Below, piece by piece: positions 289 through 54,689 of a stretch of DNA of 64,000 nt; the stretch's first letter is position 1, and each line of letters starts with the position of its first letter. Source of the stretch: Pocillopora damicornis (Eukaryota). The notes below the pieces were generated by a model that saw only the letters and a list, made by a program, of their open reading frames with translations, was not told the origin of the DNA and ran no database searches. The stretch spans positions 62,001 through 126,000 of the forward strand of contig NW_020846105.1 of assembly GCF_003704095.1 (NCBI RefSeq). The letters are read 5' to 3'. The translations under genes were made by a program, and so were the position numbers.

Positions 289-1322
289 CTCTAAAAGGAG
301 TCACATCGTTAGATGATGGCGTCACCTCCTGATCACATGTGTATGGAGCTGGGGAGGGATCGGATAATATAGTCATAAAGTGCAAAAGAGATATGAAAAT
401 AGCACAACAACTCAAGAAACCGTAATTAATGGTGATTTTATCATCATTGTTATTATTATAATTATGTTCCACTCATGCGAGAGGGCTTTAGTATGAAATA
501 TAACTTTCAAAGAAAATTAAGTTTTAATCAAACTAATGAACAAAAATTGGCACTTCAAGAACTTCTGTAACAGCACAAATACTCAAACACTTACATTTTT
601 TATTGACCACACGGTAGAAAGCACTGAAGCCAGTGTAGGAGTCTTTATCGTCGGATTTGAATATTAAAAACAGACTGTTCCATGTAGAGAAGATTCCTTC
701 CTCTGGTGGATGATGATCTCCATAAAACACACCCAACAAGTAATCTCTCTCATTTTCTCCATCGTACACATATAGCTCGTCCGTGTCTTCCTCGTTTTGT
801 AATTGGAAGGTTGTGAACTTAAGATGAACTCGTTGTGAGTAATGAACAGTTATTCTCCAAGAGCAGTACTGTCCACTTGGATACTTTTCCGGATGAAAAG
901 GCGATTGAAGAGTGCCATTGTTGGAGTTAAAAGTTTTGTTGCAGCCTACAAGCAAAAATTACGCACTTATAATTGAGTTACTGTCGTGACAAGAGGCCTG
1001 CACGAGAAATGATAGAAGTCTTGCACCGTATTAATTACATGAGTGGAAAGCACGCACGCACGCAGTGTGACTCACGATATGGACTAGCTCGTTTTATGAC
1101 ACAATACAACACCTTTATGCATAGTACTGTATCCATTTTCATGTACTATCTAACTTAAATTAACAACTCCAGTGATAATTAGGATAGCAAAAACCTGTCG
1201 TATCGTTTCAGTATCTTATGCCATTGCTGAAAATTTAAGTTACTTGACATTTCCACACAATTATGCTGTTTTTCTTACCCCGATAGTAACAGTAATACAT
1301 AGTTGGGTGTTTAATTCCTGCA
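289..1322 (-). CDS. ACR-1, 5' part: end of ApeC exon, CUB exon and stalk exon (contig in opposite orientation to the rest of the array)
   Basis: Minus-strand exons: 1279-1322 (..GIKHPTMYYCYYRG, ApeC C-terminus, truncated by gap), 595-945 (351 nt CUB: GCNKTF..SPFHPEKYPSGQYCSWRI..DELYVYDGE..FKSD..GFSAFY) and 289-348 (S/T/P stalk). All visible junctions are phase 1 with GT-AG sites. Confidence 0.85.
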
Positions 1323-1497
1323 NNNNNNNNNNNNNNNNNNNNNNNNNNNNNNNNNNNNNNNNNNNNNNNNNNNNNNNNNNNNNNNNNNNNNNNNNNNNNN
1401 NNNNNNNNNNNNNNNNNNNNNNAGAATCGCGTTAGCATTGTAATAATGATGATCATACGTAAATAATAGCAACGATACTGGTATTTTTCCTTCCTAG

Positions 1498-3179
1498 CTT
1501 CTGATTTTGTAACAATCTATTCAAGCGTATTTGATCATGAAGTGACTCCATCACCTGAAGTGTCCTCTACCAGTTTAAAAACCCTGGAAGTGACGTCATC
1601 TAGCGTTGTGGCTACTTTCTTTAGAGGTAAGACCTCAAGAACCGCGTAAGTGTGGTGATAATGAGGAACATATATAAATGATGACAACGATACTGATATT
1701 TCCTTTTCTAGCCGTTGATGTTAAAACCACCAATTCATGCACATCTGATTATGAGGTGACGCTACTGCCTGGTGTAACGGCGACCTCTCCAGACGCTCAG
1801 GAATTGACGTCATCCAAAGTTGAATTAACTACCCTCAAAAGTAAGTCCTCACGAAACGAGATCGATTAATAATGGTAGTAATATTCCACACGCTGAAATA
1901 AGAGTGATGTTAGAGTGATACTCAGTGTTTGCCTTTGTGGCACCATGCGCCAAATATANNNNNNNNNNNNNNNNNNNNNNNNNNNNNNNNNNNNNNNNNN
2001 NNNNNNNNNNNNNNNNNNNNNNNNNNNNNNNNNNNNNNNNNNNNNNNNNNNNNNNNNNNNNNNNNNNNNNNNNNNNNNNNNNNNNNNNNNNNNNNNNNNN
2101 NNNNNNNNNNNNNNNNNNNNNNNNNNNNNNNNNNNNNNNNNNNNNNNNNNNNNNNNNNNNNNNNNNNNNNNNNNNNNNNNNNNNNNNNNNNNNNNNNNNN
2201 NNNNNNNNNNNNNNNNNNNNNNNNNNNNNNNNNNNNNNNNNNNNNNNNNNNNNNNNNNNNNNNNNNNNNNNNNNNNNNNNNNNNNNNNNNNNNNNNNNNN
2301 NNNNNNNNNNNNNNNNNNNNNNNNNNNNNNNNNNNNNNNNNNNNNNNNNNNNNNNAACGCCAGAAGCGACGGATCAACCAATCCCAGCTATTTCTAAAGT
2401 GTTTCACTCCCTGGCAAACACAACTGTAAAGACACCCTTTAGAGAACCACAGACAGCGAAAGCCACGGAGCAGAAAAANNNNNNNNNNNNNNNNNNNNNN
2501 NNNNNNNNNNNNNNNNNNNNNNNNNNNNNNNNNNNNNNNNNNNNNNNNNNNNNNNNNNNNNNNNNNNNNNNNNNNNNNNNNNNNNNNNNNNNNNNNNNNN
2601 NNNNNNNNNNNNNNNNNNNNNNNNNNNNNNNNNNNNNNNNNNNNNNNNNNNNNNNNNNNNNNNNNNNNNNNNNNNNNNNNNNNNNNNNNNNNNNNNNNNN
2701 NNNNNNNNNNNNNNNNNNNNNNNNNNNNNNNNNNNNNNNNNNNNNNNNNNNNNNNNNNNNNNNNNNNNNNNNNNNNNNNNNNNNNNNNNNNNNNNNNNNN
2801 NNNNNNNNNNNNNNNNNNNNNNNNNNNNNNNNNNNNNNNNNNNNNNNNNNNNNNNNNNNNNNAAGCTTGCTGATAGGAGCATTTTTTTGCTGGAAGAGGT
2901 AAGAGCTATGATAGTGCAGTTATCATTCGTTCTTGTTTTGTCTGAATTGAGAACCAATTTTTTTGGTGCAAAAATAATAAATAAGCCCATAGATGCAGAC
3001 ATAACAATAACTGGAGACAAGAAAGAAGAATTTATCATAACGAACAAAAACTTATCGTGAAAAAAATAGTAATGTAAAACTTTTTTTCATTTTCTTGATT
3101 TGTTTAATGTTTTTATTTCTTTTTTGCGAAGGAAGAGAAGGAGAGATAATGGAGTATTAGACGATTCGGTTTATTTGAG
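1498..3179 (+). CDS. ACR-1, 3' part: tandem mucin-like stalk exons, TM end and first cytoplasmic exon (gapped)
   Basis: Two 129-nt phase-1 exons, 1498-1626 and 1712-1840 (S/T-rich, EVTP/EVTSS repeats). Fragment 2357-2478 (TPEATDQPIP..). TM end 2863-2898 (SLLIGAFFCWKR|gt). 48-nt exon 3132-3179 (RKRRRDNGVLDDSVYL). Confidence 0.65.
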
Positions 3180-6231: not shown

Positions 6232-9200
6232 AATGCACTCGTTGGCCAGCTGGAACATACGGTCTACCCAAACCAATATCCGGGTGTCCCTGGTCAGAAG
6301 GCTTTTCCTGGAGAGAAAGATAGAGGTCTCAAGATACCAACGGAAAACAATCGAACAACTCAAGGTCACCAAAATTTCACCTTGATGGAAAAGTGGATAA
6401 CGATGAGATTAAAATATCCTTCTGCATTAAAGATGATATAACAACCGATAGGAACAGGCCTCCATGGCCAAAAGGTTGGTTGCAATTATTTCCTGATGAA
6501 AATGTTGGTCGCGCGACATGCGCTCACTAGCTATTCTCATTGCTAACCTAATTCAAAGCAAGGATAACACAACCTTTAAACTTCTTGCTTGGCATCATCC
6601 TTTGTAATGGATAAATAAGTGGTGTAATCCTTTCCGGTCATTTTAGTTTAAGAATTGAATAGTTCTCTTAGACCGAACATTTTAAAAGTGTTATCATCTG
6701 CATTCCATGTAATTCGTCGTCAATAATATTCAATACCCTGTTCAATATCTGTTACAGGGAAGTACTGCATCTATAAGAGAAGACGGCAATGCCCTGCAGG
6801 TTTAACATTAGGTGAACTCTTCTGGGATGACGAGGAGAACGCAAACCGTAATGATGATGGAGGAACACTTCCTGAGGGTAAATATAACCACGACACAGTT
6901 ATCTACTTTTGCTACAAAACAAACGGTTCCAAAGACGACCCAATTGCTCTTCCGGTGAAATCTCCATTTTTTTCTTCTGGTGTATGAGTCGGCAAAATGC
7001 CAGATGGTCAAGTGGGCTGTATATTCTGTGGAGTGGATATATTACGCCACAGAAGATTAGGACGAAGACGAAGCACTTGATGCGTACCCTTACAACGCTG
7101 GAAAAGTCATCCCACCATTTATTATTGCTTCTATCAAGGTGAGAGTCAATTTCCTATGATTGCGTAAAGATCAGAAATAAAAGCTAGTATTGAAATAATT
7201 GACGGACTCGTTTGGCGGTGTTCAGCTGTATTTTAGATGTAAACCCTNNNNNNNNNNNNNNNNNNNNNNNNNNNNNNNNNNNNNNNNNNNNNNNNNNNNN
7301 NNNNNNNNNNNNNNNNNNNNNNNNNNNNNNNNNNNNNNNNNNNNNNNNNNNNNNNNNNNNNNNNNNNNNNNNNNNNNNNNNNNNNNNNNNNNNNNNNNNN
7401 NNNNNNNNNNNNNNNNNNNNNNNNNNNNNNNNNNNNNNNNNNNNNNNNNNNNNNNNNNNNNNNNNNNNNNNNNNNNNNNNNNNNNNNNNNNNNNNNNNNN
7501 NNNNNNNNNNNNNNNNNNNNNNNNNNNNNNNNNNNNNNNNNNNNNNNNNNNNNNNNNNNNNNNNNNNNNNNNNNNNNNNNNNNNNNNNNNNNNNNNNNNN
7601 NNNNNNNNNNNNNNNNNNNNNNNNNNNNNNNNNNNNNNNNNNNNNNNNNNNNNNNNNNCAATTATTCTAGACTAATGCTTCAAAGGGTATCGACTGATAA
7701 AAGGTTGCTTTGGTTATACTTGGGAAACAATGGTATTTTGTTTTAGAAAATTAACATACGAATATACTTTTCTTAACAAACAGGAGTACGTTTTCCAACA
7801 AAATTAGTACCACATGTGTCTATGATTCCTCAAACCTCGAAATTGACCCAAACACCGTCGATTACCACTGAACCTTTCCAGACGCCGAATTCGACATCCA
7901 TCACAGAGCCATGGAAAAAAACAACTTATATACCATCCTTGGAAAGTGAAAAATGCAATGATAGAGAATATTCTGAGTACAAAGGTAACATAAAACAGTA
8001 ATGTTTGCTACATCAACGATGCGAGTAAATTCATAAAACTTGTGTTTTGTCATACTTGTTTAATAGCTTCGATAAAAAAACCTTATTAAAGACATTTATC
8101 AAAATGTAACTGAACTGTTATATATTTAAATAGACCTAAATCTTCTGATTGTTTTTATTATACCTCTCAACTAAGTTTAAAATTTTATTTTTTTATTTTA
8201 TCTTTGGAATGTTTTTTTTTTCGTTTGTCTGTTTTCTTAGGTACCCAGGCTGAGCAGGGAACGATCAACAAAGACATAGTATATGGATCCGTCATTGGAA
8301 TCCTCGCCTTACTGCTAATAATATTTATGATAAATCAATTTTTAAAAAAATGCAAACGTAAGTACTTGCTTTGAGGTACACTGTTAGTTAGGATGTTTGT
8401 GTCGAGCTAACATATCAAAACCATAGCTTAAGTACTTATCCACGTGGGCCTTTTTATGATCGGCGTAATGACTTTGATTCCTTCATAGATAAATTAGAGG
8501 CGTGAAGAATGCAGAACTAAAATAACTTATCAGCTCTCATGCTGAATAATGCTGGTAGAACCATACTATTAAGATGATACTAGGCTACGAGCGCTCTACA
8601 TACTCTTAGGGTTGCACATTCGATACCGAACGATTACCGTATAACCGTTTGAATTAATAAATGCTTAGAATAACACCTTCTTTGTTTCACTGATTGTTTC
8701 CTTTTTTATTCCTAGATAACAAAAGAAATCGGTAAGTATGTTTGTTTGTGTCATAGGTCAGAGTCTTGTTAAAAATTAGTAATGCGAGCAAATAACGCTG
8801 TCCTTGGAGATTGATAGAGCAATGGTTATTGTGGATCTTCCTTTTCAAAAATGATTTCATAGAGGTACATGGCTTCATGATTAACGAAAACAGTTTTTAG
8901 TTTACGGTGCACTGACTTAAATAATAAGGAATATTCCATTCTTCGATAATTTGATGTTAATTACTCTTCCATTGAAATTCAAGTAAAAATGCAAGGTTAA
9001 AGTTTGTGTTGGATGGGATGAAGTTTATCCTCTCCTGGGGCGTGTGAAAGTTGTTCTCAAAGATATGACATTTTTCTTAGAAAAAAGAGCATGCCTGCAG
9101 GGAAGAAACAGTCTCGCTATGTAAGAAGAAAATCAATACTAGGCCACACTTATAAACCAACAAAATAGACGGTGTTCCCAACACCGCCACATGACCATAA

Positions 9201-9788
9201 TCAACGATGTTAAACTGAATACATTTTTGGTAGACATACCGTCTATGAATAATTTGAAGGTTCTAGCTTAAAAGTATTTTAGGTGTATTTTGCATCCTTT
9301 GAATGTGAATGAAACTTGAAAATTTAGAACTTCTGAGTCATTTGGGGGACAAACGAATTGTGGCCAGTGTTCCACTGTTATTTTATCGGCTGACAAACCT
9401 ATCCTTGAAAGCCTTTTTTCCACCATGTTTAACAAAGTGGAGGAGCAGGAGTACCGGGTTACTCGTTTCGTCGGCCTTGTATCGCAGAATAGCAAACAGT
9501 GAACAGATAAACTGAGATCATCTCAAGGATACACGTCAATATTGAAAGTCACAAAACTAATACATTACTCAAATAGAGGAAGATGTCTGAGAGAAATTTT
9601 ACTTCACAGCTGTCAAATAAATAAGCAAGTAAGTCACAACAAAACGTTACAGTTCACACTTTCATTTGAGAACACAGAACCAGGCTGCTGAAATTGAAAC
9701 TGATGATCAGGAGTATACAAGCCATCATCATAAACCTGAGAGTTACGTGGTGAACGAAACTTCACCTTCACAAGGAAGTTTAAAAGAA
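6232..9788 (+). pseudogene. ACR-2: ApeC-(CUB presumed in gap)-stalk-TM receptor pseudogene, closest paralog of ACR-3
   Basis: Exons 6232-6474 and 6758-7138 (ApeC), 7784-7984 (stalk), 8241-8357 (TM), 8716-8731, 9081-9120, and 9678 to the gap. Lesions relative to ACR-3: TGG>TAG at 6321-6323, +1 T in the run at 6967-6973, TCG>TAG at 7058-7060, and a 1-nt deletion near 7106. Confidence 0.85.
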
Positions 9789-10330
9789 NNNNNNNNNNNN
9801 NNNNNNNNNNNNNNNNNNNNNNNNNNNNNNNNNNNNNNNNNNNNNNNNNNNNNNNNNNNNNNNNNNNNNNNNNNNNNNNNNNNNNNNNACATTCTGTACG
9901 ATTTCAGCTCCGAGAATTTGGTGTTAGTGAAAATTATACTATATTTCATGTTTTTATGTCTTCTTACTACCAAGATGCTTGAAAGAGAAATTATATCACA
10001 AGGAGAGTCTCCTATTTGGTCACTACAATATCTGAGTTACTTTTGTTACCTACTGCGGGAAAGTAATCTTTTTACGGTTAAAAAAAGAGATACGAATAAG
10101 AATAAAAGAAACTAGGATGGACGAGGATTGCAGATGAAAAACTTGAAATGTAGAACTGAGGTTTGTAGCCAAAGAGAGTGACGCAGTCACAGGAGTGGAT
10201 TCAACGTCTTGTTAAGTTTGTGTGACAACCATCAAAAGACATGTTAATCCGTACCACGTAACGCTTTAAAGCGAGGCAGTCATTGTATTACTTTGTCGCT
10301 GAGGTATTTAAAGGTTTTAGAGACATTAAA

Positions 10331-13300
10331 ATGCTGCTGTGGACAATTTTGGGACTCATGTTCTTCACTTTTTCCTTAAATGTTTCAAGTAAGTGTGCTA
10401 TTTATTGCATATGCATGAAATGATGTAATGAAGTGTGCCATGAATATGTCAGAAGGTATCGTTAAAACGGTGCGCAGATAAACGTGGTCAACGAGTAACA
10501 GTTTATGCTTTAGAACTTTGTCCTCTTTCTTTGTCCGACGGATTTACCAGATTTAAGTCAAAGGAACAGCCCTAGATCTCATTTTTTATCCACTACAGAT
10601 AGGGAAATTCTGCCGAAATCAACACAGACATCGCAAAGTAGCTGTAGACAATTGTTATTGTCAAGATTAAGATTACGACCAAGCTTCTTTGGTATTACAG
10701 TATTATAGAACAGGCTCGCTCGGAGACCATGAATTATTTAACTCCACCGTTCAATAGTGTAGGTAAAGTTATCATGCCTACTGTGTTTTGAGTTTCCCAG
10801 ATATAAACCCGATCTCTTGATGATTGTTTTCAAATGTGCTTAATGTTCCTAAAAATGTGCCTAAAAAATGTGCCTAAAAACGTGATGCCGCCATTTTGAA
10901 TATTCTTTAACTCTCCGGCTGATTACCTGTGCGGAAACTAAGTCCGCTCGTTTCGTCTCTCGGAGATCGTTTTGAATAATCAGGATCAACAGTAAATGGT
11001 AGTTTTGCCCATTCTTCAGTTTCTAGGAAAGAAAGTGTTTGTTCAGCGATTGACGTGCGATGTGCTTTCGCGTATGCGTTTGTTTATTGAGTTGTTATCA
11101 AATTGACAGCGACCGAATTCGAATTTGAAGGACATTTGGATAAAACTTTAAGTAGCTAATTCATTCTCTCTTTAGACTCTCAAACCACGTCAGGGGCTGG
11201 AGCTTTCTTCTCCTTTTATCGTAACGGAACTATAATTCACATTCTCACCGACAAGGCTAAAACGAAATACTGGGACAGGTAAAACGTTCAAGCATACGAT
11301 TTATAGTCCAGCCTGTATTAAGCGGCACTGTATTTAAGCAGTCACCTGTAATAAGCGGTCAGTTGTCGAAGTCCTGAATTTGATTTCTGCAAATCACTGT
11401 AATCTTCACCACTATTAAGCGGTTACCTCTATTTAGCGGTCGCGGTCTCCCTTTTCTAAGTCCCAACAGTTTACATTGAACAGCCACTGAAAGCGGAACC
11501 AGTCAAATAAAACTAATAATAATCTTTCAAGAAATTTTAATCCATGTTTCTCACTCAAAATCATAGTAATATTATCGAGCGAGATTCTGTACACAACGTG
11601 GTCAATTCTAGCATAAATGGCGTTGTTTATCGGTTTTTAACCTCTAGTGCAAAGCACAGACACATTGCTTTGACGCTAAAAAATATGAGTAAGTGCTTCA
11701 TTTATGACAAACTATGAAGTTCCTTTGAGGTTTCTCATATAACGGCGTACATGATGTATTTGGTAAGTATTCTTTTCTGGGTAAGATCATCGATAATCAC
11801 TTGGTATTCCCTCTTAACCCGAAATAAACAACCGATGAAAACGTATGGCAATCTGAACCAGACGAATTAGTGATGAGGACAAACTCATGAATACTGATAA
11901 GGCTGATGAGGGTCCAATGACACACAATTTCCATCCAGAAATCCCAGAGACGTTCGCAACAATTTGTAAGGCTTAACATTCTTAAGACCATGCGAATCAC
12001 CAGTAGAAAAATTCACATAAAATACAGAGGTAAATTTTCAGAGCTTTGATTAAAGAGAGTTGTCATACAGGCATTCAGTTAAAAAAATACTTTCACTTAT
12101 TCATTTCAATGCAGTCTGCTTTGTGACCATGCACCATTTGATTATTTTTTACTTTCTCCAGAATGCACTCGTTGGCCAGCTGGAACATATGGTCTACCCA
12201 AACCAGTATCCGGGTGTCCCTGGTCAGAAGGTATTTTGTGGAGAGAAGGATGGAGGTCCCAAGGCACCTTCGGAATACAAACGAACAACTCAAGGTCACC
12301 CGAATTTCACCTTGATGGAAAGGTGAATAGCAATGAGGTCAAAAGATCCTTCTGTATTAAATACCGTATGACAAGTGATTGGAACAGACCTCCATGGCCG
12401 AAAGGTGGGTTGCAATTTGTTCTCATGAAAATTTTTGCCGCACAACATGTGTCCTCCATTTATGCTCATTGCTAACCTAACTCGAAACAAGGCCTATAAA
12501 CTATCAACTTCTTGCTTTGCACCATTCTTTTTGAACAGTGAGGCCGTTATCCGTTGATCTCTCGTCGTCAGTGGTATTCAATACCCTCTCGTCATTTTCT
12601 GATCTCTTACAGGGAAGTACTGCATCTACAAAAAATATAGATGCCCTAAAGGTTTATCATTCGGTGAACTCTTCTGGGATGATCAAGACGGCTATCGGAT
12701 TAACGAAGATGGCGGAGTACTTCCCGAGGGCAGATATAACCACGACACAACTATCAAATTTTGCTGCAGAACAGACGGCGATAGAGATGACCCAGTTCTT
12801 CTTCCGGTGAAATCTCCATTTTTTCTTCTGGCGTATGAGTCGGCAAAGTGCCAGATGGTCAAATGGGCTGTTTCTACTGTGGAGTGGATACATTATGATA
12901 CAGAAGATTCGGACAACCAAGACGAAGCACTTGGTGCGTACCCTTACAACGCTGGAAAAATTCATCCCACCATTTTTTATTGTTACTACCGAGGTGAGGG
13001 TCAATCGCCTCGCAGTTGAAAAATGATCAGCAAGTATTGAAATAATCAATGGACTCGTTTAAAGGTGTCCAGTTGTGTTATAGACTTACATACTTTTGAT
13101 TGTACTGGAAACTGTCGGATACCATATTCGAGTTTAACGAACATTAGGCGATCTTCCCTCAGAAGTGGTATGTTTAGATAAATCAAACGAACGACCAAGA
13201 CAAAGCACCATGCTGGAAAAAGTCACCCCGCTATTTGTTATTTTTACTATGGATCCGGAAGTGAGGCTCAATTGCCTTTGGCGGCCATAGCCTTTGCCTT

Positions 13301-23085: not shown

Positions 23086-26000
23086 ATGCTGTATTGGCGA
23101 ATTCTAAGTTTAATAATATCTTCCCATAGCCTAAAGGTTTCAGGTAAGTCTTTTTTAGGGAGATTTGAAAAGGTATGTTGTAATATGTTTATGATGGGTT
23201 CAAACATGTCGTCCTGTGATAACATGCGAGAACTGTGAACGCAGCCACCGAATCTGTTCTGTAGCGTTTGAGAATCAATATCCTCGTTTCTCAAACTTGG
23301 AATGCTCGTCAGGAAACCATTAAATCAGTTATCACCTGGAGACCTTATAAGTAAGCAGCGAGTAAATATCGGGAACAAATAAGCATCCTATCTCCTAAAT
23401 CGGGTTTCTGAATTCCAAATTGACAGAACATCACGCTTTGTTTCATTGGTTTCGGAAGGAAACAATCTTTTAATTTTGAATGCTCTCCAATAGAACAGCA
23501 AGTTGACAAAGATTGACGAATTGATAGAGTGACTTGTCAGTGCTTAGTCACAAGAAAACAGTTTAGGAAAAATTTGAGTACCAAATCGAAACAACGGATG
23601 TAAAACGCGGTTTCAAGCTAAAACTAAGTCTAGTCGATTACAATCGTCGGCTCAGCGAACAATTTATATTCCTGTTAAACAGAACCTGTTCGTTGGCCAT
23701 CTGGCCGATACGGGATACCAAAACCTGTAGCTGAGTGTCCTAGAGCAGGAGGGTTTCGCTGGGAGAAGGGATGGAGATATCAAGACACAGAGGATACTAA
23801 TTCGGCAAACTCAAAATCACCGCAATTTCACCTTGATGGAGAGGTTCGAGAAGCAGGAATTGCAAGATCTTTCTGCATGAAAACTTCAACAGCTGACGAT
23901 AGCAACAGGCCACACTGGCCATCAGGTAAGAAAGTGACTATCATCTGACCAAAAATAGAGAAACCCATGAGTAAGTTACTGCCCTAAATATGTGTACGCA
24001 AAAATGGGTCTCCTAAAATTTGTTTTACCTTAAAGCTCTACCAAGTGTTACAATATCCACCTATTTGTTTTTTCCATTAACGTACAATTCAAAAAAGCAA
24101 GGAAAATAAGTAGATTGCGATTTTTTAGTTACTGCTCGATGACACTTTGACATTTAATTCTAATAATAATAATAATAATGAAATAATAATAATTTATTAT
24201 ATACATTTATATAGCGCTTTATAAAGAGGAAAATTAACGTGTTGCATTAGATTTTTCCGTAGTACCTTCAACGTAACTTATCTGAATGTTTTTTTCTCTG
24301 CAGGGCAGTACTGTATCTACAAAAAGCGAACCTGCCCTCCAGATCTAGAGTCAGGTTACGTCTACTGGGATGACGAAGACTTCGATAATCGTAATGATAA
24401 AAGGGGCATACTTCCTACTGGCAAATATGGAAAGGACACCAAGATTTACTTCTGCTGTGCGACGAGTGGAAACAAAACTGATCCCATTATCATCCCCGCT
24501 AAAGATCCATTCTTCCTGCTAGCTTATGGGTCAAAAAAATGTCAGATGGTCAAATGGGCGGTTGCCAGTGTGGAGCGGATACGTTATCATACTGAAGACA
24601 GGAACAACGAGGATAAAAGCTATGGGGCGTACCCTTACAATGCTGGAACAAAGAACCCAACCATTTACTACTGTTATTACCGTGGTGAGCAATCACACTC
24701 ATGCAAACATCTTTCAGCTATCATAATTACATTTGAATTGGCAATGAATAGCGAGGGTCTTTATTTTTTATTGCAAATTTAAGAAGCACTCATGAGGAGA
24801 GGGAATAAGGCTAATTTTGCCGTCGTACCCGGTTAGAACTTGCGGTTATTGTTCACCAAAGAAATTTATTAGTGGAAACAGCATATTGACCATTAAACAG
24901 GAAATGTCATTTTACCGTCTCTCAATGTACACGTCTCTAATGTATACGTCTCTAATGTCACACACTTAACTCCCACATCAATTTTTGTTAAATCCATTTA
25001 ATCCTATTTCAGGATGCAACGAAACTCTTACATCTATATATGGTACTTTCCATTCTCCAAACTACCCAAGAACATATCCAGATGGACAGTACTGCTCCTG
25101 GAGAATCAAAATCAACCAAACACAACGAATCCGTATGACATTCACAAACTTTAGTTTGCAGTACGAGAGTGGCACAGACGAATTATATGTGTATGATGGA
25201 GAGAATGCTACAGGGAAGATATTGGGGGTGTTTTACGGAGCTCATCCACCCCCAGAGGAAGGAATATTTTCCTCGTCTAATAATCTATTTGTAATGTTCA
25301 GATCAGATAGCAAAGGCTCGTACGCTGGATTCAATGTTTCTTACTACGGTGTTAGTTTTCCAAGTAAGTATTCCCTAATTCCGTGAACCTTTTGTATCAC
25401 ATGATGTAAGTTTCTTGCACTATTTTCTCTAAATAAGACTGAAGGAATACGTTCTTCTCCATGGTTAATAAACATGCTATGTTAACATTAGATCGGAGAT
25501 GTATTGAAAAGACTATTTTGCAACGCCGAATTACGATTTCTCTCATAGCTACCCAGACAACAGAGATAACACACGTTTTCCACACGAAAAACACAACATC
25601 TGACGGAGAGCCGAAACCTACATCTGATAAATTATCGAAAAAGGGTGGAGTTGAAAGCGGAGAGAAGCAACCACAAAGACGAGGTAAATACTAAAAGGTG
25701 ACGAATTTATCTTCACAGGTTAACTACTATTTATGTTACGGCAGAAGGAGAGGTCTGAAAGGATCCAGGGATCAGGCTGTTTAGAGTTTGTGTTTATTCA
25801 TCTGTAACCCACAATTAACCTGCAATCAACTAGTATATAGATGACCATACTAGGTCTTATAGGAGCTGTTATAATAAACCAAAAAAAAACAAACAAATAA
25901 ACTGTTTCAAAGGAGAGGTTCCGCCAGGACACAGCTTTTTGTGTAGCTAATTCTACAGTCCTATATAGTGATACTGATCTACCTTGTACAGGTGTGAATG

Positions 26001-29000
26001 TAGTAGCCGTGGTCATTCCCGTGGTGTTGGCCGTCTTGCTTGTTTATATGGGTTCAGCTGTCCTCTTTCATATCACACGGTAAGTATTCACGTTGAAAAG
26101 CATGTCATACCACCAGAAATTTTATTTTGGCTTTTCCTTGATTTCTGAAATATCGAAGCAGATCCGATTAGATGACGTTCTTCGTGTGCTGGAAATCGTT
26201 GGCTTCACAAAACCCTCAGAAGAATTTTTTTCGTCTTGTCACGAGTGTGAGAAAAAGAAATTATATTGAGTCCCTACAAGGACTAAATCAAACATCAGAC
26301 CTTCGGATTCCGCGCTGCGATGCTCTACTACTGAGCCACAGAGACTGTCGTTTTCTTTGTCCCATGCTTATGACAAGACGAAAAACAAATTTCTCTATTT
26401 CTTTACCGCGCTCAAAATTTTATCATTTTTCTAATTCTATTTACAAACAAGACGCTATCAACATAGCTGATCCTAGCAGCGCATGCTGGATGCGTGAACT
26501 TCGTAATGGCCTTGCACGCTATAGAATGTCTGGTAAGGGATGTCATAACTCATGTAAAACTAACAGAACCGTTTGTTCAATTTTAAGGTCAAGGAAAGCA
26601 TCAGCCGTGTCAACTGAAAATCCGAATTATGATAGGTGAGAATCACATATACATTTGCACTGAACATTCAACCACTTAATTTGTAAGGTCATTGGGTGCT
26701 TGTTAAATTAACGTTTCCTACGATTCATGATTATAGTTTTCACTGGGCTGTATTAGATAAAAGGCAACGAACTACTGATTTCAAAACATTTCAATGATAA
26801 ATCACCTTATTATCCAACTACACAAAGTAGAGTACTAATAACGCGCGAATAGAGTACAAACATCCTGCGACATTGTACGATTATTTAGACAGTTGGTTAT
26901 TTTGTACTATAAAAAAACCTGTTTAACCAGTCGGCTGCGCGCTACGCTTCTCTATCCGCTTTGTTTTCCCCGCCCAATGAGAAACGAACAGGAATACTTG
27001 GCAGAAAAGAAAAGCAGTTGGATAGTAATAAATTACTAGACGTTTGGGTGTGTAGTATCGCTAGATATTTCATATTCGTTGTTTGCATTTTGACTCGCTG
27101 TACGGGCTCGCCAAAATACGGCATAACTCGTGAAAATACTCAGCGATACTATACACCAAAACGTCAAATGAGATATATTTACTCTATTACGGTAAAATGT
27201 TGATTACCTCTCTTGAAACCTTAGCTCCATAGAAGGGTAGTCATCTTTCAAAATGAGTACAATAATCTTTTGCGAAACTATCTGGAATAAGTAGTGCAGT
27301 GTAATAATTTTTAGCCTTTTTCAAACAGAATGAATCAACTGATGAACGATTTCTATAATCTGGTCTGTTTCACTATATGATAACTATCAACGTATGACAT
27401 TCCATACTAACAAAACCAAAACCAAAACCCGCATTGATTGATATCGCCGTCATCATCATCATCATCATCATTATTTTCCAAGTGATACATTCGATGACGA
27501 TTATGAATTTGTTAAAATGCACGATGTTAATAACTCATTGGTTTACTTTGCAGCACCTTGGTTACTGCAAACACAAATGAAATTAATGGTTTAGACGGAA
27601 TTGAATTGTACGCCGAAGTTAAAAACCAACACGACGTCGATGATAGTGGGCAACTCTGTTGTGGAAAAGAAAATGAAAACCCTTCGTATGAGCCTGCAAA
27701 ATCACCTGACGCTGCTGTGGTTAACCCCATCTATGAAAGGTTAGTTTTAAGTCGGAGTGAGAGACTAGTCATTATTCATCACCTGGGGAGGGAGGATTTC
27801 TGGAGGATCACATGATTTTAAGGGGAAAGGTGGGGGATCAGTCGTCGCCAACAGAGCAAAAAGGGGAAGGATTATAGAAAATTGACTGACATAACCAAGA
27901 TCCTCCAGCCCTACCTCCCCCCCCCCCTCCCCCCATGATAAATAATGTAAATGATGACCAGTCCCTTAATGATGTTTTTTCCGTTTTTCTCTGAGGGCAT
28001 CCAAACTTGCTGAACAGGTGTAGATTTACTATTTTGAATTTTGATTGACTTCCTATGCTTTTCTATACAACATTTTAATGGCTACTGCCTCCAAAAGGAG
28101 GCGAAGCCCCATGTGTCGTAGAGATGATTAGCTAGTGAGCGAGTGAGTGCAACAGTGGAATTCCGATCTTGACCCAATTTTGACCCGATGTTTCTCCGTG
28201 CTACTTTCACCTTGAGTCATTCAACAGAGTAATGGAACGGGAACGGTGGATAGCGAAATGTCGGAATATCTTGAGACGCGGAATGACGGAATATCTAAAA
28301 CGCTGATGAATTTTTGTCTAAAAGTCTAAAAAAATTAAATGGCAATAAAATAAGAGATCATTCATTAATAACAGACGAAATTAAAAGAAGCATGGGCAAT
28401 CATTGTTGGAGCCCAGAAGATAAGGAACCATAAGGTTTTCGAGCTAGCTCCTTTAAATTATTATAATTTAACTATTGTTATAATTATTGTTATTGTTAAT
28501 ATTATTATTTGTTACCATGCAATTATTGGTTGAGTATCAATTGAATAATATATTCTTGAATCATCTTTCTCTCGTGGAACAGAGTACTCATAAAAATGTG
28601 GAATGCAGCAGGTTTTCTGTTTTGCATGTGTGACAAATCTTCTGCAAGACTGCCTTGTAGTATCATTAGACAACCTCGAGTTCTTTTCAATGCTAAAAAA
28701 GTTGTGCTATATCAGTAGCCACATACAGTCTTTGACTGTCTATTTTTTGCGATGCCACTACGTCTTCAAAATACGTGATAATTCACGAAGTGTTCATGCT
28801 TCAATTTTAGGTGATTTCATACTCCAATTAAGTTATTTACTAAAATCATGAATCAGCTACATTCAAGACAGACAGTTAGAGAAGATGAAATTGTTTTAAA
28901 GAAGAGTTAAGCATTGCATCCTCTTTTCAGACGAGGAGCCTCTTCAAACGTATACATGAGATCCTACTCGGCGTGTTGCGCAAGTACAAACTTACAGCTG

Positions 29001-29612
29001 AAGGCGATACTGCGCCGCAGTAAACGGGAGATCCCCTGAATTACATCATAGTAATTTGCTTATTATCATATCAGAAACAGAATGACGGAGTTTTCAGGAG
29101 ATGACTTGTACAGTGAGGTTAAAGAGCAACAAAATTGTGATGAAGTACCTTGTAGGGAATACGAAAATGAAAACCCGCTTTATGAATCTGCTGCCTCTGA
29201 CGATATCCTAATGGTCAACCCCATTTATGACAGGTTTGTCGTGCGATATTATATGTACGTATATTTTCCATAACCTACAGGAGGATATTGGGATTGGCTA
29301 AGAAGATATTGCTATGATTAGATGTAACATTTTGTAACGCTGAGCACCATTTCAACATACGATAGACTTTCCACTGCTTTCCTCTGGCAATCTGAGCCGA
29401 AAGTAACGTTTCCTCTCAAAACGAGCCAACTCGTGCGAAATTTCAGTGAATAAATCAGTTTAGTAATAGTAGTTCTACGAGTCAGATTAACTCCGCTCTA
29501 CAAATAACGATCGACTCAACTGTATTTTTCTTTAAAATATTCTTTGAAAACGACACAACGACACGATTATTAATTTTCTTCTAATTCTTTACTTTTTCCC
29601 AGCTTCACCTGA
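23086..29612 (+). CDS. ACR-5: signal peptide-ApeC-CUB-stalk-TM receptor with a multi-NPxY tyrosine-motif tail, ~552 aa
   Basis: Exons 23086-23143, 23683-23925 and 24304-24684 (ApeC), 25013-25363 (CUB), 25549-25683 (stalk), 25992-26079 (TM), 26588-26635 (ENPNYD), 27554-27739 (LYAEV, NPSY, NPIY), ~29075-29233 (LYSEV, NPLY, NPIY), 29603-29612 (stop). Phases are consistent and the frame is open. Confidence 0.88.
26220..26525. mobile_element. tRNA-related SINE/MITE-like dispersed repeat
   Basis: Inverted arms ttttcgtcttgtcacgag..aaagaaa / tttctttgtcccatgcttatgacaagacgaaaaa enclose an antisense tRNA-like segment (gaccttcggattccgcgctgcgatgctctactactgagccac). Confidence 0.55.
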
Positions 29613-31213: not shown

Positions 31214-34200
31214 ATGCAGGGAACAAGGGCAACCCGGCTTATTCTGTTGGCAGGTATGTTAATCGACTCAAATCAGAAACACAATCAACACGAATATATT
31301 ACGTGAACTCTATTCAGGTGTAACAAACCTTGTTCTATCGCGTGGTTTAGGTGTTTACAAACAGCATTTACAGGATGTTTAACCTTCCAATTATACAAAA
31401 GATCTTAAATGAAAATGTCCAACCGAGCCTTTAACCCTTTTTTTATTTAGCAGCAGCGAAAATGTTACTTGATTTTGTAGAAATATAAATATGCCTCACA
31501 TATATCTGGCACTTAAAACGAAGGAATTATGACTGTGAATCGAGTAACCCTGCTTTCCCTTGGCAACGAAGAGTTTTCAAACCTCTTCATTATTTGCACT
31601 ATCTTCAACAGAAAGAAATATTCTGTTCAAGCATTTTGTGCACGCTGACGTGTAGAAGCCTTGACGATTTGAACGGTTAGTGACTCCAAGTTACACCGTG
31701 CGTGCACAAAGAGCTATTAGAAAGTAATTAATGTGGGGTAATTGTTGAACACAGGACAATGTACGAAAATAATTAAGTTTACGGCTATGTCATTATCTTT
31801 CTTGCGGAAACCCGTTTCAAAATGTGTACGGAGGAATCGAAGGTAAAAGGGTGAAGTAAGGCAATCAGTTCCTTTTACGCTTACTCTGCCTAAATTTTGT
31901 GCGAGTTTGTGAGTCTCTGTCGCCACTTTGTTTTTCTTGCAATCTTCCTTACATATTTATCAGACTAATTAGATTGACAGACTGTTATTACATGCTATTT
32001 TTTCGCTTGGAAGATAAACATAACCCGGAAACTGATCTTCTGACTGCCAAAACCCTCCGTCGTGACGTAATAAATAGAGAAAGAGCAAGAAATCAGTCTT
32101 TGATTAACCAATAGAACGTAACGGCGAATAACCGCTGAAATATACGTAAACCATATGTATTGTTGTCGATATAGTAACCTTTATGAGATGATGTCAGCCT
32201 GATGAAATCTGAATAACGTACCTTACTATGAGCCCAGTAATGGGCTCCTGACCTTACACATTATTAACCGGCTGGATGTTTTGATAGGAGTGCTCTCCGT
32301 GAAGACGTGGGCAAAAGACGCAGGTGACGCAATAACACATGCTTCTACATGTAAGAACTGTTAAAATCCTTGTTTTGTCGGTAATGAATTTTGTAACAAA
32401 ATTAGAAACAGTCATCAAAGGCAACCAGCACATAATTATGCACAAAATTGAAATATCGCCTGTAGTCATTGTTATGCGTGATGAAAAATCACCACCATAA
32501 AAGACACATTGTTATAATTTTGTTAAGGTAGATAAACGATTTGTACCGATTAATAAAACTGAGAAAACAGAGCATTTTTTTAACATTGTACTCTAGAAAC
32601 AAAGCAAACAAAATTAAATAAAGAGGCTAACTTGAGGTATCTCAAGAAACGTAACCCGACAAGGGCTACGTTTCCTGAAAGCCTGAACTTCTATAATCAA
32701 CAGAACTTCTTTCTTCCTGAAAGCCTGAACTTCTATAATCAACATTAGGAGTCATAATCCCCTGTCCAATCCAGGGCAGGGCAATGAATGTAAGCTCTTT
32801 TTTTTAAATTTTAAGACAATATAGCAAGATCAGGAAATGGGAACGACAAAATATTGTTCGGAGAAAAAACAAAAAACAAAAAAAACCCAATGACTGAACA
32901 CTTTAATGATCGCGTAATCGTGTTTATTGTAGTGCGTTTGGTCCAAGGACGGACTGCAAGAGATGGCCGAGTTGAAGTACGTCGTTCCGGCGCCTGGGGT
33001 TCAGTGTGTGGCGAACAGTGGGACTTGGTGGATGCTAATGTTCTTTGCCGACTGTTGGGCTACAATGAAGCCTTAGCATATTACCAAAATATCACTTTCA
33101 AGCAGAGCAATAATACATTGTGGCTAACTGACGTACAATGCGTTGGAAATGAGAGTTCTCTTTTTCATTGTGTTAACTCTGGCTGGGGAAAACGCACTTG
33201 CAATGAAGGTCTTGCTGCTGGAGCAACGTGTTCTGATAGAAGCTGGGGTGAGTTTTGTTGCTGCTTTTGGTAAGTTGTCAGTATTTTTAGGTCAAATAAT
33301 TATTTTATGTCATAAGAGAAGTCTCCATTTTCTTGACCACGTCACGCTTTTTCTGATTGGCTGAGCGTCGAGTATTTAGAACTACTTGATTGCAGCTGAT
33401 CTTAAAGTGTTCAACAAGTTTGACCCAATACCTGAAAGTATTGATGCTGTAATATACAATTCTAATCAGCATCTTGATTTTTTTTCCTTTTTGTCATAAA
33501 TCAAGGAATGTGGAAAACAATTTGCGCAGTTATCATAATTGATTACAGTGAAGTGTCGAAAGGTGCCGAAAATGTAACCTACACAAATAGACTCTCGTCT
33601 GTTCTCATGTATTCTTGTCACTAAACTACAACAGCGAATTTGTATCTTGCAGGCATCTCGTTAACAATACCACAGTATGTTTCAAGCACACTGGACTCTC
33701 TTACAATAAAGTGCAGCATACCTGACGTGACAGATATAACGTACACAATACAAATATGGTCGAACACAACTGACAAATGGTATGATAGTAAATGCCGCCG
33801 ACGAAGCAATGTAGTTGGATCGTGCGTTGTCAAGGTACCCAAGGCCATAATAACTCTTACTGGTCTGAGCCCCGGGCACATATACTACCTACGACTTGTT
33901 TCTCCTTATCTGGTGTATAGTCAGGTATCGGAGTCAATGGCTACGAAGAAATTAGGTAAGGTTTCGTTTGACTTTCAGTTGAGAAAGTGTGGGGAAAAAA
34001 CCCTCCAAGTAGTCCTATTCCATTCAATACAACCTCAACTCTTCGTAATTTGGTACTCACACATATCGAAAAATACTCAACATCATTAACTAATGGTCAA
34101 ATCTCGCAATCTCCCGCCTCCCAAATCGAATCAGATTTGATTACAGGTGGACACTTTATGTCATCATTATTTGCACTTCGAGTATGTGTATCATGGATTT

Positions 34201-36346
34201 AATTTTTCCCTTCTTGAGGTGATCCGAGTGTACCACGATTTGTCTCAAGCTCCGATAGATCTATCACATTAGTTTGGAAGCCAACTCCCACTGAGTTCAC
34301 AAACTACTCAGTGGAAGCAAAATGCTGCGGAGAAACTACATGGAAAGCGGTGGAATGTGTGGAAAAATTAACTGATACAGGATGTACTGTTAGTAATAAC
34401 ACAGCAACTGTTATTGCTCTCAAGAAAGATCAGGATTATCGTTTCAGGGTGTTGGCGCTATACAAGAGTTGGAAAAGCACACCGAGTGCATCAAGTGAAG
34501 CAATGAGGATAAAATCAAACGGTAATATACTTTTCTTATTATATCAAGAGGGCTAACACTCGACAACAACTTAATTGTAACCTAAACATATCCTCGTGAA
34601 CTCGCTAATTGAACAACTATATTAAGCCAATGTTTATAAGAGATTGATTCCCCATACCTCGTGCGGGAAATTGGATTATTTAAAAGTCCGAAACAGCTTG
34701 TCTCATCACTGAATTGGTGTGTTCTTGACCAGTGATGTTTCATCCTAAAGCAGTTAACAACTGATGAAGCTAATAAAAAGTATAAATGGTTAGAGACGTC
34801 ATAAACTCTGCTGTCATGCACCACCGTAGTTAGAACAGAAAGGCAGGAACGTACTCTGAGGTCGACACCGAATGCATACGACGTGGGAGGGTGTGGTCTC
34901 CTGCCGAGTTTTAGAGTGAGTAACACTATTCAAATTTAGACATATAATTTTTATTGCAAAAGATACTTAAAATTCCTATCATTTAATTTTTTTTTCTGAT
35001 AACAAAGAATGCAAAAATACTCCTGCCCTTTTCTTACAAGGCCCTAAATTGACATTCTCAATGAAACAAGCAAGCCGGCGAACAGTGTATTTGTACGAAA
35101 GTGTCTCATCCCAACGAACAATAAAATTTTCTCAATTAATTTCCGTTTTAGTACTTCTTCTTTTACATTATTTAGCCTCAACGTCATTGTTTTACGTTTT
35201 GTTACCTAGATGATCCGCACAGAATTTGGATTGGTTCCATGAAACAAGAATGTGTAGCTTCGAAAATAGGTGATAAAATAACTTTGTTTTGTCACGCTTC
35301 CGTTGACGAACCGACCAATCACAAATGGACAAAGGGGCAATCTATTCTTAATAGCAGTGGAGATGGAGTTCTAAATGTGACGGTTTCTTCACTTGCTGAC
35401 TTTGGAATATATACGTGTCAAGTAACCACATCAGACGATGTAAAGCAGTACAATATCACTATCTGTCAGATACGGGTACTGAAAGAGGCAGCTACTAAAG
35501 GTAACTGAACCTAGTCTCCCAAAATATACTGAGGTTCACATCAATAAGAGTAGAAACTCAGATGTAACGAAGTGCGGAGAAGTAATACCATGACCTTATC
35601 GCTTGGCAAAGACTAACAGTATAACAGTCAGATTGTCGCCATCAACAATTGATGGCCTGACCTACTATTGATAGTACACTTTCCGTTGGGGTTAAAAATC
35701 ATAGCCCTGATGAAGAAACAGATGACAATTTGTTTCCTTCTAAGTAAAGATGAAACCCTAAGGATCAAGGAAATTTTACTTTCCTCAAACTGAAAGCTTG
35801 TCGTGATTAGTTGGTTTCATGGGCCCTAATGTAGAAAACTTCAAAGTTTTCGTTTCTTCCTATAGAGAAGTGTAAAAACTTCCCACTGACCTCCTTAACG
35901 ATTGTGATAATGCCTTGATCATTGCACTTTTTCTTTTGGTTAAAACTCCCCTCACGACAAGAGGTGTGGGCGTTTTCAGCTATTCTTGAAGTTTCCAAAT
36001 TAAGACAAGATTAGATCGACCAAACATTCTTTCAAGAAGAGACTTCTTAACTTCACGCCCAGTTAAACTAATCTCAATACCTTGCGCTCAAGTTTTTCTT
36101 TAACACCATCGTTTTTTTTCCCTTGCAGATACTAAAAACAGAACAATTATAGCTATAATCACCACTTGTTTTATCTGCTTCGGAATATTTATAATTGTTC
36201 TAATACTCTTAAAAATGGCGCAGATATATCGACGAAGGAAAAAACAGTTGAAGGAAACAAACCGCGAGGAGATGGCCATGCTGAATTACAGACAAAAATC
36301 AGTCAGAAATAACAACGAAGCTGACGAGCTCGACTTTAATAGCTGA
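31214..36346 (+). CDS. SRCR-FN3-FN3-Ig-TM type I membrane receptor (~490 aa)
   Basis: Putative first exon 31214-31253 (MQGTRATRLILLA). SRCR 32933-33247 (VRLVQG..GRVEV..WGSVC..W..ANVLCRLLGY..WLTDVQCVGNESSLFHC..AGATC, 6 Cys, group A). FN3-like 33653-33955 (..LTGLSPGHIYYLRL) and 34219-34521 (SITLVWKP..LKKDQDYRFRVLA). Ig 35210-35500 (ITLFC..WTK..DFGIYTC). TM plus tail 36129-36346. Confidence 0.85.
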
Positions 36347-54100: not shown

Positions 54101-54256
54101 CTGTATGGATTTGTGTTGGGCGGTTGAGGGGGAGTGGGTAAGGCCGGGGGTGGCTAAGTAAAATGATACGCAAAAAGGCTTTCGCAAACTGTGATTGGCA
54201 CATGTGTTGGGTACCCAATGCAAGTCATCAGTTGAGACGTGAACACTGCTAGGAGT
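48156..54256 (-). pseudogene. FRRS1: Ferric-chelate reductase 1-like copy A (Reeler-DOMON-DOMON-cytochrome b561) with in-frame stops
   Basis: Reeler exons 54025-54256, ~53759-53871, ~53489-53595, ~53198-53309. DOMON1 ~51369-52730. DOMON2 ~49977-51177. b561 exons 48631-49706, with His motifs AHG (end of the preceding exon), VHR, AHS and CHR. Terminal TM exons ~48399-48536 and 48156-48244. Stops: TAG at 54154-54156 in the Reeler frame, and TGA at 49684-49686 replacing the conserved Trp of HGSLMVVAW. First exon unresolved. Confidence 0.82.
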
Positions 54257-54689
54257 CTGGAAAACAACTTCAAACGACAGATACACATGAGTAAGCAGGT
54301 CAATTGTTATTACGTAAAATGAAAAAGTAAGTCTCGACATTGCACTGACTTTTCATGCACAGCAAACTTTTGCACTGTCATTACAATCGAAGGTGCGAAA
54401 AACGACCGTTTTCACCTAAAAAAATTTTCAAACAGCAGAGAAGTTGCAACATTCTATGACAAAACAAAAAGGAAATTTGAAAGAGCCCTTCAATCCTCTC
54501 TATTTTCCGATAGAGGCGTGTTCAGAGTCAGCTTACGTAGGTTTATTCTGGTAATTTAAGTACAACGCTTATTCCAAATTGAGCCAAACGAGAAAATCAG
54601 CGAGTATTTTACGGGGAATTTGCCTATCCTAACAATCCATCATTAGTAGGACATGCATAGTGCGAAGCAAACTAGCATTATTTTTTAAC

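What the first reader, a model, noticed from the sequence alone, without database searches (positions are those of the whole stretch)
6232..24684. The three ApeC DxED motifs are altered differently in each paralog
Seen (motif 1/2/3): ACR-2 DTNG/DDEE/ATED, ACR-3 GTFG/DDQD/DTED, ACR-4 DTNG/DDDD/DTQN, ACR-5 DTED/DDED/HTED. Meanwhile the Cys/Trp scaffold (WP.G.YG.PKP, CP, FHLD, WP.G.YCIYK, CQMVKWA) is nearly invariant. Known: three DxED motifs are the hallmark conserved feature of ApeC domains. Inference: variation concentrated at presumed ligand or cation sites suggests specificity diversification among paralogs.
Basis: partly seen in the sequence, partly recalled or inferred. Interest (0 to 1): 0.7.

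Follow-up and report, generated by a model that had tools for sequence, protein, structure and literature searches.

The report
Coral surface receptors re-tune lectin sites
A tandem cluster of coral genes encodes predicted cell-surface receptors whose lectin-like ApeC domain has lost, or kept in altered form, three acidic motifs that other ApeC proteins conserve; one of the four copies is a broken gene, and the intact copies likely differ in what microbial or self ligand they recognise.

Summary
The twelve motif readings are correct, but ACR-2 is a pseudogene (stops, frameshifts, a lost cysteine), so its motifs are not translated in this allele. ACR-3, -4 and -5 are intact, found spliced in RNA contigs, and encode signal peptide–ApeC–CUB–Ser/Thr stalk–transmembrane proteins of a stony-coral clade. 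DxED sites evolve slowly in 115 other ApeC domains but at background rate in this clade. None of 30 clade domains keeps three DxE[DN] motifs, against 50 of 115 outside. The paralogs differ in kind. Between ACR-4 and ACR-5, 6 of 6 differing motif sites are fixed within both orthologue groups (26 of 77 other sites, p=0.002). ACR-3 motif 1 simply drifts. Codon models find positive selection, but at residues beside motifs 2 and 3, not in them. The same flanking residues vary among alleles (10 non-synonymous against 1 synonymous change in one ACR-4 haplotype). Only ACR-5 has a tyrosine-motif tail (five NPxY, two YxEV). DXED deviations with possible functional meaning are already published for amphioxus and snail ACPs, and there motif state does not cleanly predict ligand. 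Verdict: observation confirmed with one correction; interpretation partly supported; new variant of a known kind.

The parts
6232..6474 (+). ACR-2 ApeC exon A (pseudogene; TAG 6321-6323; motif 1 DTNG 6333-6344)
   Evidence: AG/GT ends and translation
6758..7138 (+). ACR-2 ApeC exon B (DDEE 6826, ATED 7046; extra T in 6967-6973, TGA 6985-6987, TAG 7058-7060, one base missing near 7101, Cys to Tyr)
   Evidence: the T-run frameshift is uncorrected in 4 of 4 runs laid and present in P0189
7248..7658 (.). N gap that probably hides the ACR-2 CUB exon
   Evidence: RNA contigs of X15 and X16 continue from 7139 into sequence that reads as the start of a CUB exon; inferred
7777..8371 (+). Open stretches holding the ACR-2 Ser/Thr stalk and transmembrane exons (limits approximate)
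   Evidence: similar to ACR-3 14919-15133
10331..10390 (+). ACR-3 signal-peptide exon (end approximate)
   Evidence: match to P0008; RNA joint 10388 to 12164 in X15
12162..12404 (+). ACR-3 ApeC exon A (motif 1 GTFG 12263-12274)
   Evidence: Pfam PF16977; spliced RNA contig in X16
12613..12993 (+). ACR-3 ApeC exon B (DDQD 12678, DTED 12897)
13504..14392 (+). ACR-3 two CUB exons (about 13504-13860 and 14039-14392, 90% identical to each other)
   Evidence: Pfam PF00431; RNA joints
14612..15595 (+). ACR-3 stalk (14612-14745), transmembrane (14958-15088) and short tail exon (from 15468), no tyrosine motif
   Evidence: RNA joints in X15 and X16; translation
16601..16658 (+). ACR-4 signal-peptide exon
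   Evidence: match to spliced protein P0029
17310..17552 (+). ACR-4 ApeC exon A (DTNG 17411-17422)
18001..18384 (+). ACR-4 ApeC exon B (DDDD 18066, DTQN 18288); allelic amino-acid changes flank the motifs
19365..20881 (+). ACR-4 CUB (19365-19715), stalk (19936-20037) and transmembrane exon with an 8-residue tail (ends 20881; start in the N gap 20292-20787)
   Evidence: four 413-aa spliced proteins end the same way
23089..23142 (+). ACR-5 signal-peptide exon (start codon inferred)
   Evidence: match to spliced protein P0217
23683..23925 (+). ACR-5 ApeC exon A (DTED 23784-23795)
   Evidence: spliced RNA contigs in X15 and X16
24304..24684 (+). ACR-5 ApeC exon B (DDED 24369, HTED 24588)
   Evidence: P0217 is identical over the domain
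25012..26633 (+). ACR-5 CUB (25012-25362), stalk (25551-25685), transmembrane (25991-26068) and first tail exon (26586-26633, one NPxY)
27552..29240 (+). ACR-5 two repeated tail exons (27552-27740 and 29073 to about 29240), each with LYxEV and two NPxY

Best explanation
These are tandem genes for predicted single-pass membrane receptors (signal peptide, ApeC, CUB, Ser/Thr stalk, transmembrane helix) that likely bind microbial or self glycan-type ligands, and whose three DxED sites have been released from the constraint seen in other ApeC proteins and then lost or re-fixed gene by gene. Shown: the architecture, splicing of ACR-3/4/5, the broken state of ACR-2, the rate shift at the motifs, fixed motif differences between ACR-4 and ACR-5, drift of ACR-3 motif 1, and an excess of amino-acid change in residues next to motifs 2 and 3. 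Inferred: each motif caps one of three repeats of the domain and forms an acidic, possibly Ca2+-bridged, binding sub-site. Paralogs would differ in which sub-sites work, while alleles would tune the residues around sites 2 and 3 under diversifying selection. ACR-5 would signal or internalise its cargo through NPxY (PTB-adaptor) and YxEV (SH2 or AP-2) motifs. ACR-3 and ACR-4, without such motifs, would act as decoy, adhesion or co-receptors. The cluster turns over by birth and death.
For: ApeC and CUB pass Pfam cut-offs in 10 of 10 exons scanned. Spliced RNA contigs cover ACR-3, ACR-4 and ACR-5, and spliced proteins P0217 and P0029 map exon by exon. The clade of 36 domains has support 0.925, with the ACR-5 lineage sister to the rest. 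Motif-site rates are 0.36 against a mean of 1.03 outside the clade (p=0.007) and 1.04 against 0.92 inside; against 47 family-matched sites p=1.4e-4, against 18 polar matched sites p=0.0013; three intact DxE[DN] in 0 of 30 clade domains against 50 of 115 others. In the same genome 5 of 10 other ApeC copies with all three motifs readable keep all three. Fixed ACR-4/ACR-5 differences: 6 of 6 against 26 of 77. M2a over M1a p=0.002 and M8 over M8a p=0.0006, with top sites 56, 96, 123, 180 (ACR-5 numbering). Allele-variable sites of ACR-3 and ACR-4 overlap the M8 sites at 8 of 14 (p=6e-5; p=0.02 if only variable sites form the background). One ACR-4 haplotype differs by 11 SNPs in 627 ApeC bases (10 non-synonymous) against 13 in the other 3,782 bases (p=2e-4). 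In the AlphaFold model each motif follows a long strand, 69 and 73 residues apart, and ApeC plus CUB gives pTM 0.85.
Against: No ligand, ion or signalling partner was tested. No solved ApeC structure was found, so the sub-site reading rests on spacing and predicted secondary structure only. Oyster CgACP1 (three motifs intact) and snail BgACP1 (all three altered) show the same peptidoglycan preference (PMC9585378, passages), so the motifs may not decide ligand. The codon models are my own implementation on 17 sequences mixing alleles and paralogs, with fixed branch proportions and uncertain alignment around motifs 1 and 2; gene conversion could inflate them. The SNP excess comes from one haplotype. 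The orthologue groups have three members each and the fixed-difference result holds for one of three pairs. Only 0.9 of the 6 exon-B motif sites would be expected to be polymorphic by chance, so their constancy among alleles is weak evidence alone. The tail tyrosine motifs do not match the strict ITIM consensus.
Confidence: 0.55

Rival explanations
1. Pure relaxation: the DxED motifs have no role in this clade and their differences are neutral drift; any specificity lies elsewhere (flanking loops or the CUB domain).
For: Motif rates are at background in the clade; mean dN/dS is about 0.9 with no selected motif site; whole subfamilies in other corals have lost all three motifs yet are intact and expanded (L029-L031, L037, L038); CgACP1 and BgACP1 bind alike (PMC9585378).
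Against: ACR-4 keeps 9 of 9 and ACR-5 8 of 9 motif residues in the Stylophora protein P0005 at 82% and 74% identity, and 6 of 6 differing sites are fixed. However, matched conserved sites are kept about as well (43 and 42 of 47).
Confidence: 0.25
2. One reading: the DxED residues themselves are the specificity determinants and were positively selected in every paralog.
For: Fixed ACR-4/ACR-5 differences; amphioxus ACP1/2 (motifs intact) bind muramyl dipeptide while ACP3/5 (motifs altered) do not (PMC8361754, passages). Short bursts of selection after duplication would average to dN/dS near 1 in site models.
Against: ACR-2 is not translated; ACR-3 motif 1 drifts; selected and polymorphic sites lie beside the motifs; DTNG is shared by 7 of 30 clade domains rather than being paralog-specific.
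Confidence: 0.12
3. The motifs are structural cation sites, made dispensable because the clade's ApeC domain is stabilised otherwise (packing on CUB, new conserved aromatic residues).
For: High pTM (0.85) for the two-domain model suggests a fixed ApeC-CUB arrangement; the clade has gained invariant or near-invariant residues such as M162, W165, W172 and I173 that vary elsewhere.
Against: Other ApeC-CUB genes of this genome keep the motifs (L006, L007); no coordinates were available to test contacts.
Confidence: 0.08

Closest known systems
Amphioxus ACP1/2/3/5 (PMC8361754, passages read)
   Same: ApeC domain with eight cysteines; paralogs differ in DXED state (ACP3 altered in motifs 1 and 3, ACP5 in all three) and the authors already suggest functional implications; ACP5 also has a CUB domain; altered copies show a narrower binding spectrum.
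   Different: Those are signal-peptide proteins with a C-terminal ApeC. The coral genes have an N-terminal ApeC, then CUB, stalk, a transmembrane helix and a cytoplasmic tail.
Mollusc short-form ACPs CgACP1 and BgACP1 (PMC9585378, passages read)
   Same: DXED state varies from all intact to all altered; lineage-specific expansions without cross-phylum orthologues.
   Different: Secreted agglutinins; both bind Lys-type peptidoglycan regardless of motif state.
Lancelet ApeC genes under presence-absence variation (PMC12373286, passages read)
   Same: Rapid turnover of ApeC immune genes; a CUB domain next to ApeC in one clade.
   Different: Different domain order and accessory lectin domains; no motif or selection analysis in the passages seen.
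Apextrins (MACPF + ApeC)
   Same: ApeC domain.
   Different: No MACPF domain: the full-length spliced protein P0029 carries only PF16977 and PF00431, and P0217 reads signal-ApeC-CUB-stalk-transmembrane-tail.
CED-1/Draper/MEGF10 engulfment receptors and clustered paired immune receptors such as Hydractinia Alr (recalled; Alr papers seen only as search listings)
   Same: Works-like resemblance only: single-pass receptors, NPxY plus YxxV/L tails, clustered paralogs with and without signalling tails, polymorphic ectodomains.
   Different: Unrelated ectodomain; no strict ITIM or ITAM; no charged transmembrane residue in ACR-3 or ACR-4.

Membership tests
ApeC-containing proteins (PF16977) | Pfam ApeC match above the curated cut-off | tested here: met
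   6 of 6 ApeC exons of ACR-3/4/5 score 82-164 bits against a cut-off of 26.5; ACR-2 exons were not scanned but align at 83% nucleotide identity to ACR-3
ApeC-containing proteins (PF16977) | Eight conserved cysteines | tested here: met
   8 of 8 in ACR-3, -4, -5; 7 of 8 in the ACR-2 pseudogene
ApeC-containing proteins (PF16977) | Three DXED motifs (described as only relatively conserved in PMC8361754) | tested here: not met
   Strict DxED: ACR-3 one, ACR-4 none, ACR-5 two; 0 of 30 clade domains have three; only 25 of 115 outside domains have three strict ones, 50 of 115 if N is allowed last. Published ACPs also lack them, so this does not exclude membership.
ApeC-containing proteins (PF16977) | Binding of peptidoglycan or microbes | not testable with these tools
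   Needs recombinant protein
Short-form secreted ACPs (amphioxus ACP1/2/3/5 type) | Signal peptide and C-terminal ApeC, no transmembrane helix | tested here: not met
   ApeC is N-terminal and followed by CUB, stalk and a hydrophobic transmembrane stretch
Apextrins | N-terminal MACPF domain | tested here: not met
   Full-length spliced proteins have none
Paired immune receptors | Clustered paralogs with similar ectodomains and different tails | tested here: met
   ACR-5 has a long tyrosine-motif tail; ACR-3 and ACR-4 have none
Paired immune receptors | Strict ITIM (S/I/V/L-x-Y-x-x-I/V/L, consensus recalled) in the inhibitory member and ITAM or charged transmembrane residue in the activating member | tested here: not met
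   ACR-5 motifs have E or D two residues before the tyrosine; ACR-3 and ACR-4 transmembrane stretches have no charged residue (read)
Paired immune receptors | Opposite signalling outcomes on the same ligand | not testable with these tools
   Needs cell assays

The most novel reading that the evidence does not exclude
Stony corals have an undescribed family of polymorphic ApeC-CUB membrane receptors that sense and engulf microbes, symbionts or non-self tissue: paralogs switch individual DxED sub-sites on or off, alleles diversify the surrounding residues under balancing selection, and tail-less members act as decoys for signalling members with NPxY/YxEV tails.
Probability: 0.25. Interest if true: 0.75.

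Novelty: new variant of a known kind. Interest (0 to 1): 0.42.

Why it matters
The role of the DXED motifs is stated to be unknown (PMC8361754). This clade gives a natural series of intact receptors with two, one or no canonical motifs, plus a short list of flanking residues under diversifying selection, so the ApeC binding site becomes directly testable. The ACPs whose binding is described in the papers read are signal-peptide proteins without a transmembrane helix. A membrane form with a tyrosine-motif tail and polymorphic ectodomain would be a candidate sensor for coral immunity, symbiont uptake or allorecognition. The bare observation that DXED motifs differ among paralogs is already in print and is not new.

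Tried and rejected
Solved structure of ApeC: none by sequence (0 matches at E up to 1 for ACR-5 exon B), Foldseek (0 at E up to 0.001 for an ApeC-only model of P0103, pLDDT 94.7) or VIA-align (0 of 48,161 chains at Z 2 or more). The two-domain model matched only CUB domains. Weak Foldseek rows for the Toxoplasma PLP1 APC-beta domain (E about 0.3, TM 0.21) are not treated as evidence. I recalled a crystal structure paper on ApeC; searches did not find it and nothing rests on it. PMC4169980 and PubMed 33186688 are not held, so I could not check whether the ApeC-CUB-transmembrane architecture is already listed in the 2021 family survey. No supplements were read. Motifs could not be mapped in three dimensions because no coordinates are returned. 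Alignment A2 was built and not used. Rejected: ACR-2 lesions as assembly errors (the T-run frameshift stands in 4 of 4 runs and in P0189; only the deletion near 7101 is absent from all four runs and may be private or an error). Rejected: decay of the whole domain (dN/dS 0.16-0.32 between intact paralogs). The link between tail type and motif acidity (mean 6.3 acidic residues of 9 in 14 domains with tyrosine tails, 4.6 in 7 without, nominal p=0.002) is not corrected for kinship, since four of the seven form one clade; it is a lead only. Earlier findings of the scan: four look-ups returned nothing. No complex prediction was run.
Full report
What is there. The window holds a head-to-tail cluster of animal genes on the + strand. 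Each has an ApeC domain split over two exons with AG/GT ends. All 6 ApeC exons of ACR-3/4/5 and all 4 CUB exons scanned pass Pfam cut-offs. Named homologues are from stony corals, the closest from Pocillopora. Spliced proteins from public collections map exon by exon: P0217 (563 aa) on ACR-5, P0029 (413 aa) on ACR-4, P0008 on ACR-3. The layout is signal peptide, ApeC, one or two CUB domains, a Ser/Thr-rich stalk, a hydrophobic transmembrane stretch and a tail. RNA contigs of runs X15 and X16 join the exons of ACR-3 and cover exons of ACR-4; spliced ACR-5 contigs were seen as partial matches. These are contigs, so they show presence, not level.

The observation. All twelve motif readings are right and the scaffold words are in 4 of 4 copies. 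ACR-2, however, is a pseudogene: a stop before motif 1, a frameshift in a T run followed by a stop, a further stop right after motif 3, a one-base deletion and a lost cysteine. In 4 of 4 runs laid on it the T-run frameshift is uncorrected, including two RNA runs with spliced contigs. The stop after motif 3 is absent in X3. One X1 contig lacks the first stop but has another stop upstream. The deletion near 7101 is absent from all four runs. P0189 carries the same frameshift, and the P. verrucosa model P0055 leaves the exon just before it. ACR-2 and ACR-3 are recent sisters: 83% nucleotide identity, dN/dS 0.58, against 0.16-0.32 for the other five pairs.

Is the variation more than chance? Of 203 ApeC hits in the proteins fetched, 147 near-complete domains were kept and 56 partial ones dropped, and the four window copies were added. 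A tree puts the window genes in a 36-domain coral clade (support 0.925), with the ACR-5 lineage sister to the rest. After removing ACR-2 and five near-duplicates, 30 clade domains were compared with 115 others. Outside the clade the nine motif positions are slow (mean rate 0.36 against 1.03, p=0.007). Inside they run at background (1.04 against 0.92; p=0.06 for faster). Against 47 positions matched for conservation in the wider family they are clearly accelerated (p=1.4e-4). Three intact DxE[DN] motifs occur in 0 of 30 clade domains and 50 of 115 others. In the same genome, 5 of 10 other ApeC copies whose three motifs could be read keep all three (L004, L006, L007, L013, L016). Among the three intact window genes 7 of 9 motif positions vary, against 101 of 198 others (p=0.11) and 10 of 47 matched ones (p=0.002). 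The outside set consists of 50%-identity cluster representatives and is much deeper than the clade, so rates are compared only as ranks within each set.

Drift or re-tuning? Both occur. Part of the pattern is clade-wide: motif 1 is DTNG or DTNN in 14 of 30 domains, and motif 2 is DDDD, DDDN or DDDT in 14 of 30. Some subfamilies in metagenome contigs have lost all three motifs. ACR-3 motif 1 reads GTFG, ATFI and STHG in its three-member group, which looks like loss. ACR-4 and ACR-5, in contrast, differ at six motif positions and all six are constant within both groups (each including a domain of the Stylophora protein P0005), against 26 of 77 other differing positions (p=0.0024; the pairs with ACR-3 give 2 of 5, p=0.21, and 1 of 5, p=0.63). 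The ACR-3 group includes a more distant Oculina protein, which lowers its power.

Where selection acts. M2a beats M1a (p=0.002) and M8 beats M8a (p=0.0006). The top sites are 56, 96, 123 and 180 in ACR-5 numbering, and none of the nine motif sites exceeds a posterior of 0.11 (M2a) or 0.56 (M8); their mean dN/dS is about 0.9. High-posterior sites are not enriched in the motif-plus-following-loop set (4 of 18, p=0.38). Allele-like sequences point to the same residues. From 15 listed members each of the clusters of P0029 (173 members) and P0006 (172 members), plus P0007, P0008 and P0025, 11 sequences align to ACR-4 and 18 to ACR-3. None changes motif 2, and none of those that reach motif 3 in frame changes it. 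Changes fall at 88-99, 109-114, 119-129 and 180-187. These overlap the M8 sites of exon B at 8 of 14 (p=6e-5; 0.02 with only variable sites as background), and ACR-3 and ACR-4 share four of them (p=0.007; 0.06). One X3 contig spanning 14305-18713 differs from the window at 24 bases, 23 of them listed: 11 lie in the 627 ApeC bases, 10 of them non-synonymous (p=2e-4 for density). The listed changes in the ACR-4 CUB exon are also many (7 codons non-synonymous, 3 synonymous). Two of the 18 ACR-3-type sequences are frameshifted (P0007, P0025); clustering favours intact ones, so this is no frequency.

Structure. An AlphaFold model of P0014, an 84% relative of ACR-5, has mean pLDDT 89.6 and pTM 0.85 for ApeC plus CUB. 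Each motif follows one of three long strands, 69 and 73 residues apart, which fits three repeats with one acidic loop each. No solved structure resembles the ApeC fold in the libraries searched, so cation or ligand binding by the motifs remains an inference.

Tails. ACR-5 has five NPxY and two LYxEV motifs, largely in two repeated exons. ACR-3's tail has no tyrosine and ACR-4's ends eight residues after the membrane. Both tail types recur in other corals. The roles of NPxY as a PTB-adaptor or endocytosis signal and of YxxV as an SH2 or AP-2 site are recalled knowledge, as is the likeness to CED-1/Draper tails.

Comparison with print. [quoted passage not shown] ACP3/5 bind Lys-type peptidoglycan but not muramyl dipeptide, unlike ACP1/2. 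PMC9585378 (passages) shows that an all-intact and an all-altered mollusc ACP have the same peptidoglycan preference. PMC12373286 (passages) shows rapid turnover of ApeC genes in lancelets. Eight searches listed no paper whose title or abstract start concerns coral ApeC-CUB membrane receptors; the library lacks most subscription journals, and two key papers were not held.

Verdict. The idea is partly right and partly anticipated in print. New variant of a known kind; interest 0.42.

Noticed in passing
window 602-946 and 1277-1321 (- strand); 1423-2902 (+ strand): A fifth family member: a CUB exon and the end of an ApeC exon on the - strand running into the N gap 1323-1422, with Ser/Thr stalk and transmembrane pieces on the + strand beyond the gap. 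The first contig piece may be inverted in the scaffold. No further ApeC was found in the 20 kb upstream of the window.
   Followed up: partly
window 18542-19490 (intron of ACR-4): A very high-copy repeat with long inverted arms (18686-18872 matches itself inverted; summed contig depth in the thousands), probably a MITE; related pieces at 11392-11563, 20097-20288 and 54744-54837.
   Followed up: no
window 13393-14456: The second CUB exon of ACR-3 arose by a recent tandem duplication of about 530 bases, 90% identical including intron.
   Followed up: partly
window 32815-36346 (+): Exons that read like a scavenger-receptor (SRCR) domain, fibronectin type III and Ig-like domains and a transmembrane stretch (domain names recalled, not scanned).
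   Followed up: no
window 40116-44686 (+): A gene with four CUB-like exons and a probable transmembrane exon; two of the exons match the ACR CUB domains weakly, at 25-33% identity.
   Followed up: no
window 50596-61234 (-): Exons that read like a Reeler-DOMON-cytochrome b561 ferric-chelate reductase family gene (recalled, not scanned).
   Followed up: no
L044-L046 (G000:C2012:17000-47000): A second tandem cluster of three ApeC-CUB genes with single-exon ApeC domains, two of which keep three canonical motifs.
   Followed up: partly
L017, L021, L022 (G000:C1285, C1273): Further ApeC copies with in-frame stops in this genome, in line with birth-and-death turnover.
   Followed up: no
P0025 versus window 6967-6973 and 12809-12814: An ACR-3-type sequence carries a frameshift in the same T run as ACR-2: recurrent slippage or gene conversion between the two neighbours.
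   Followed up: no
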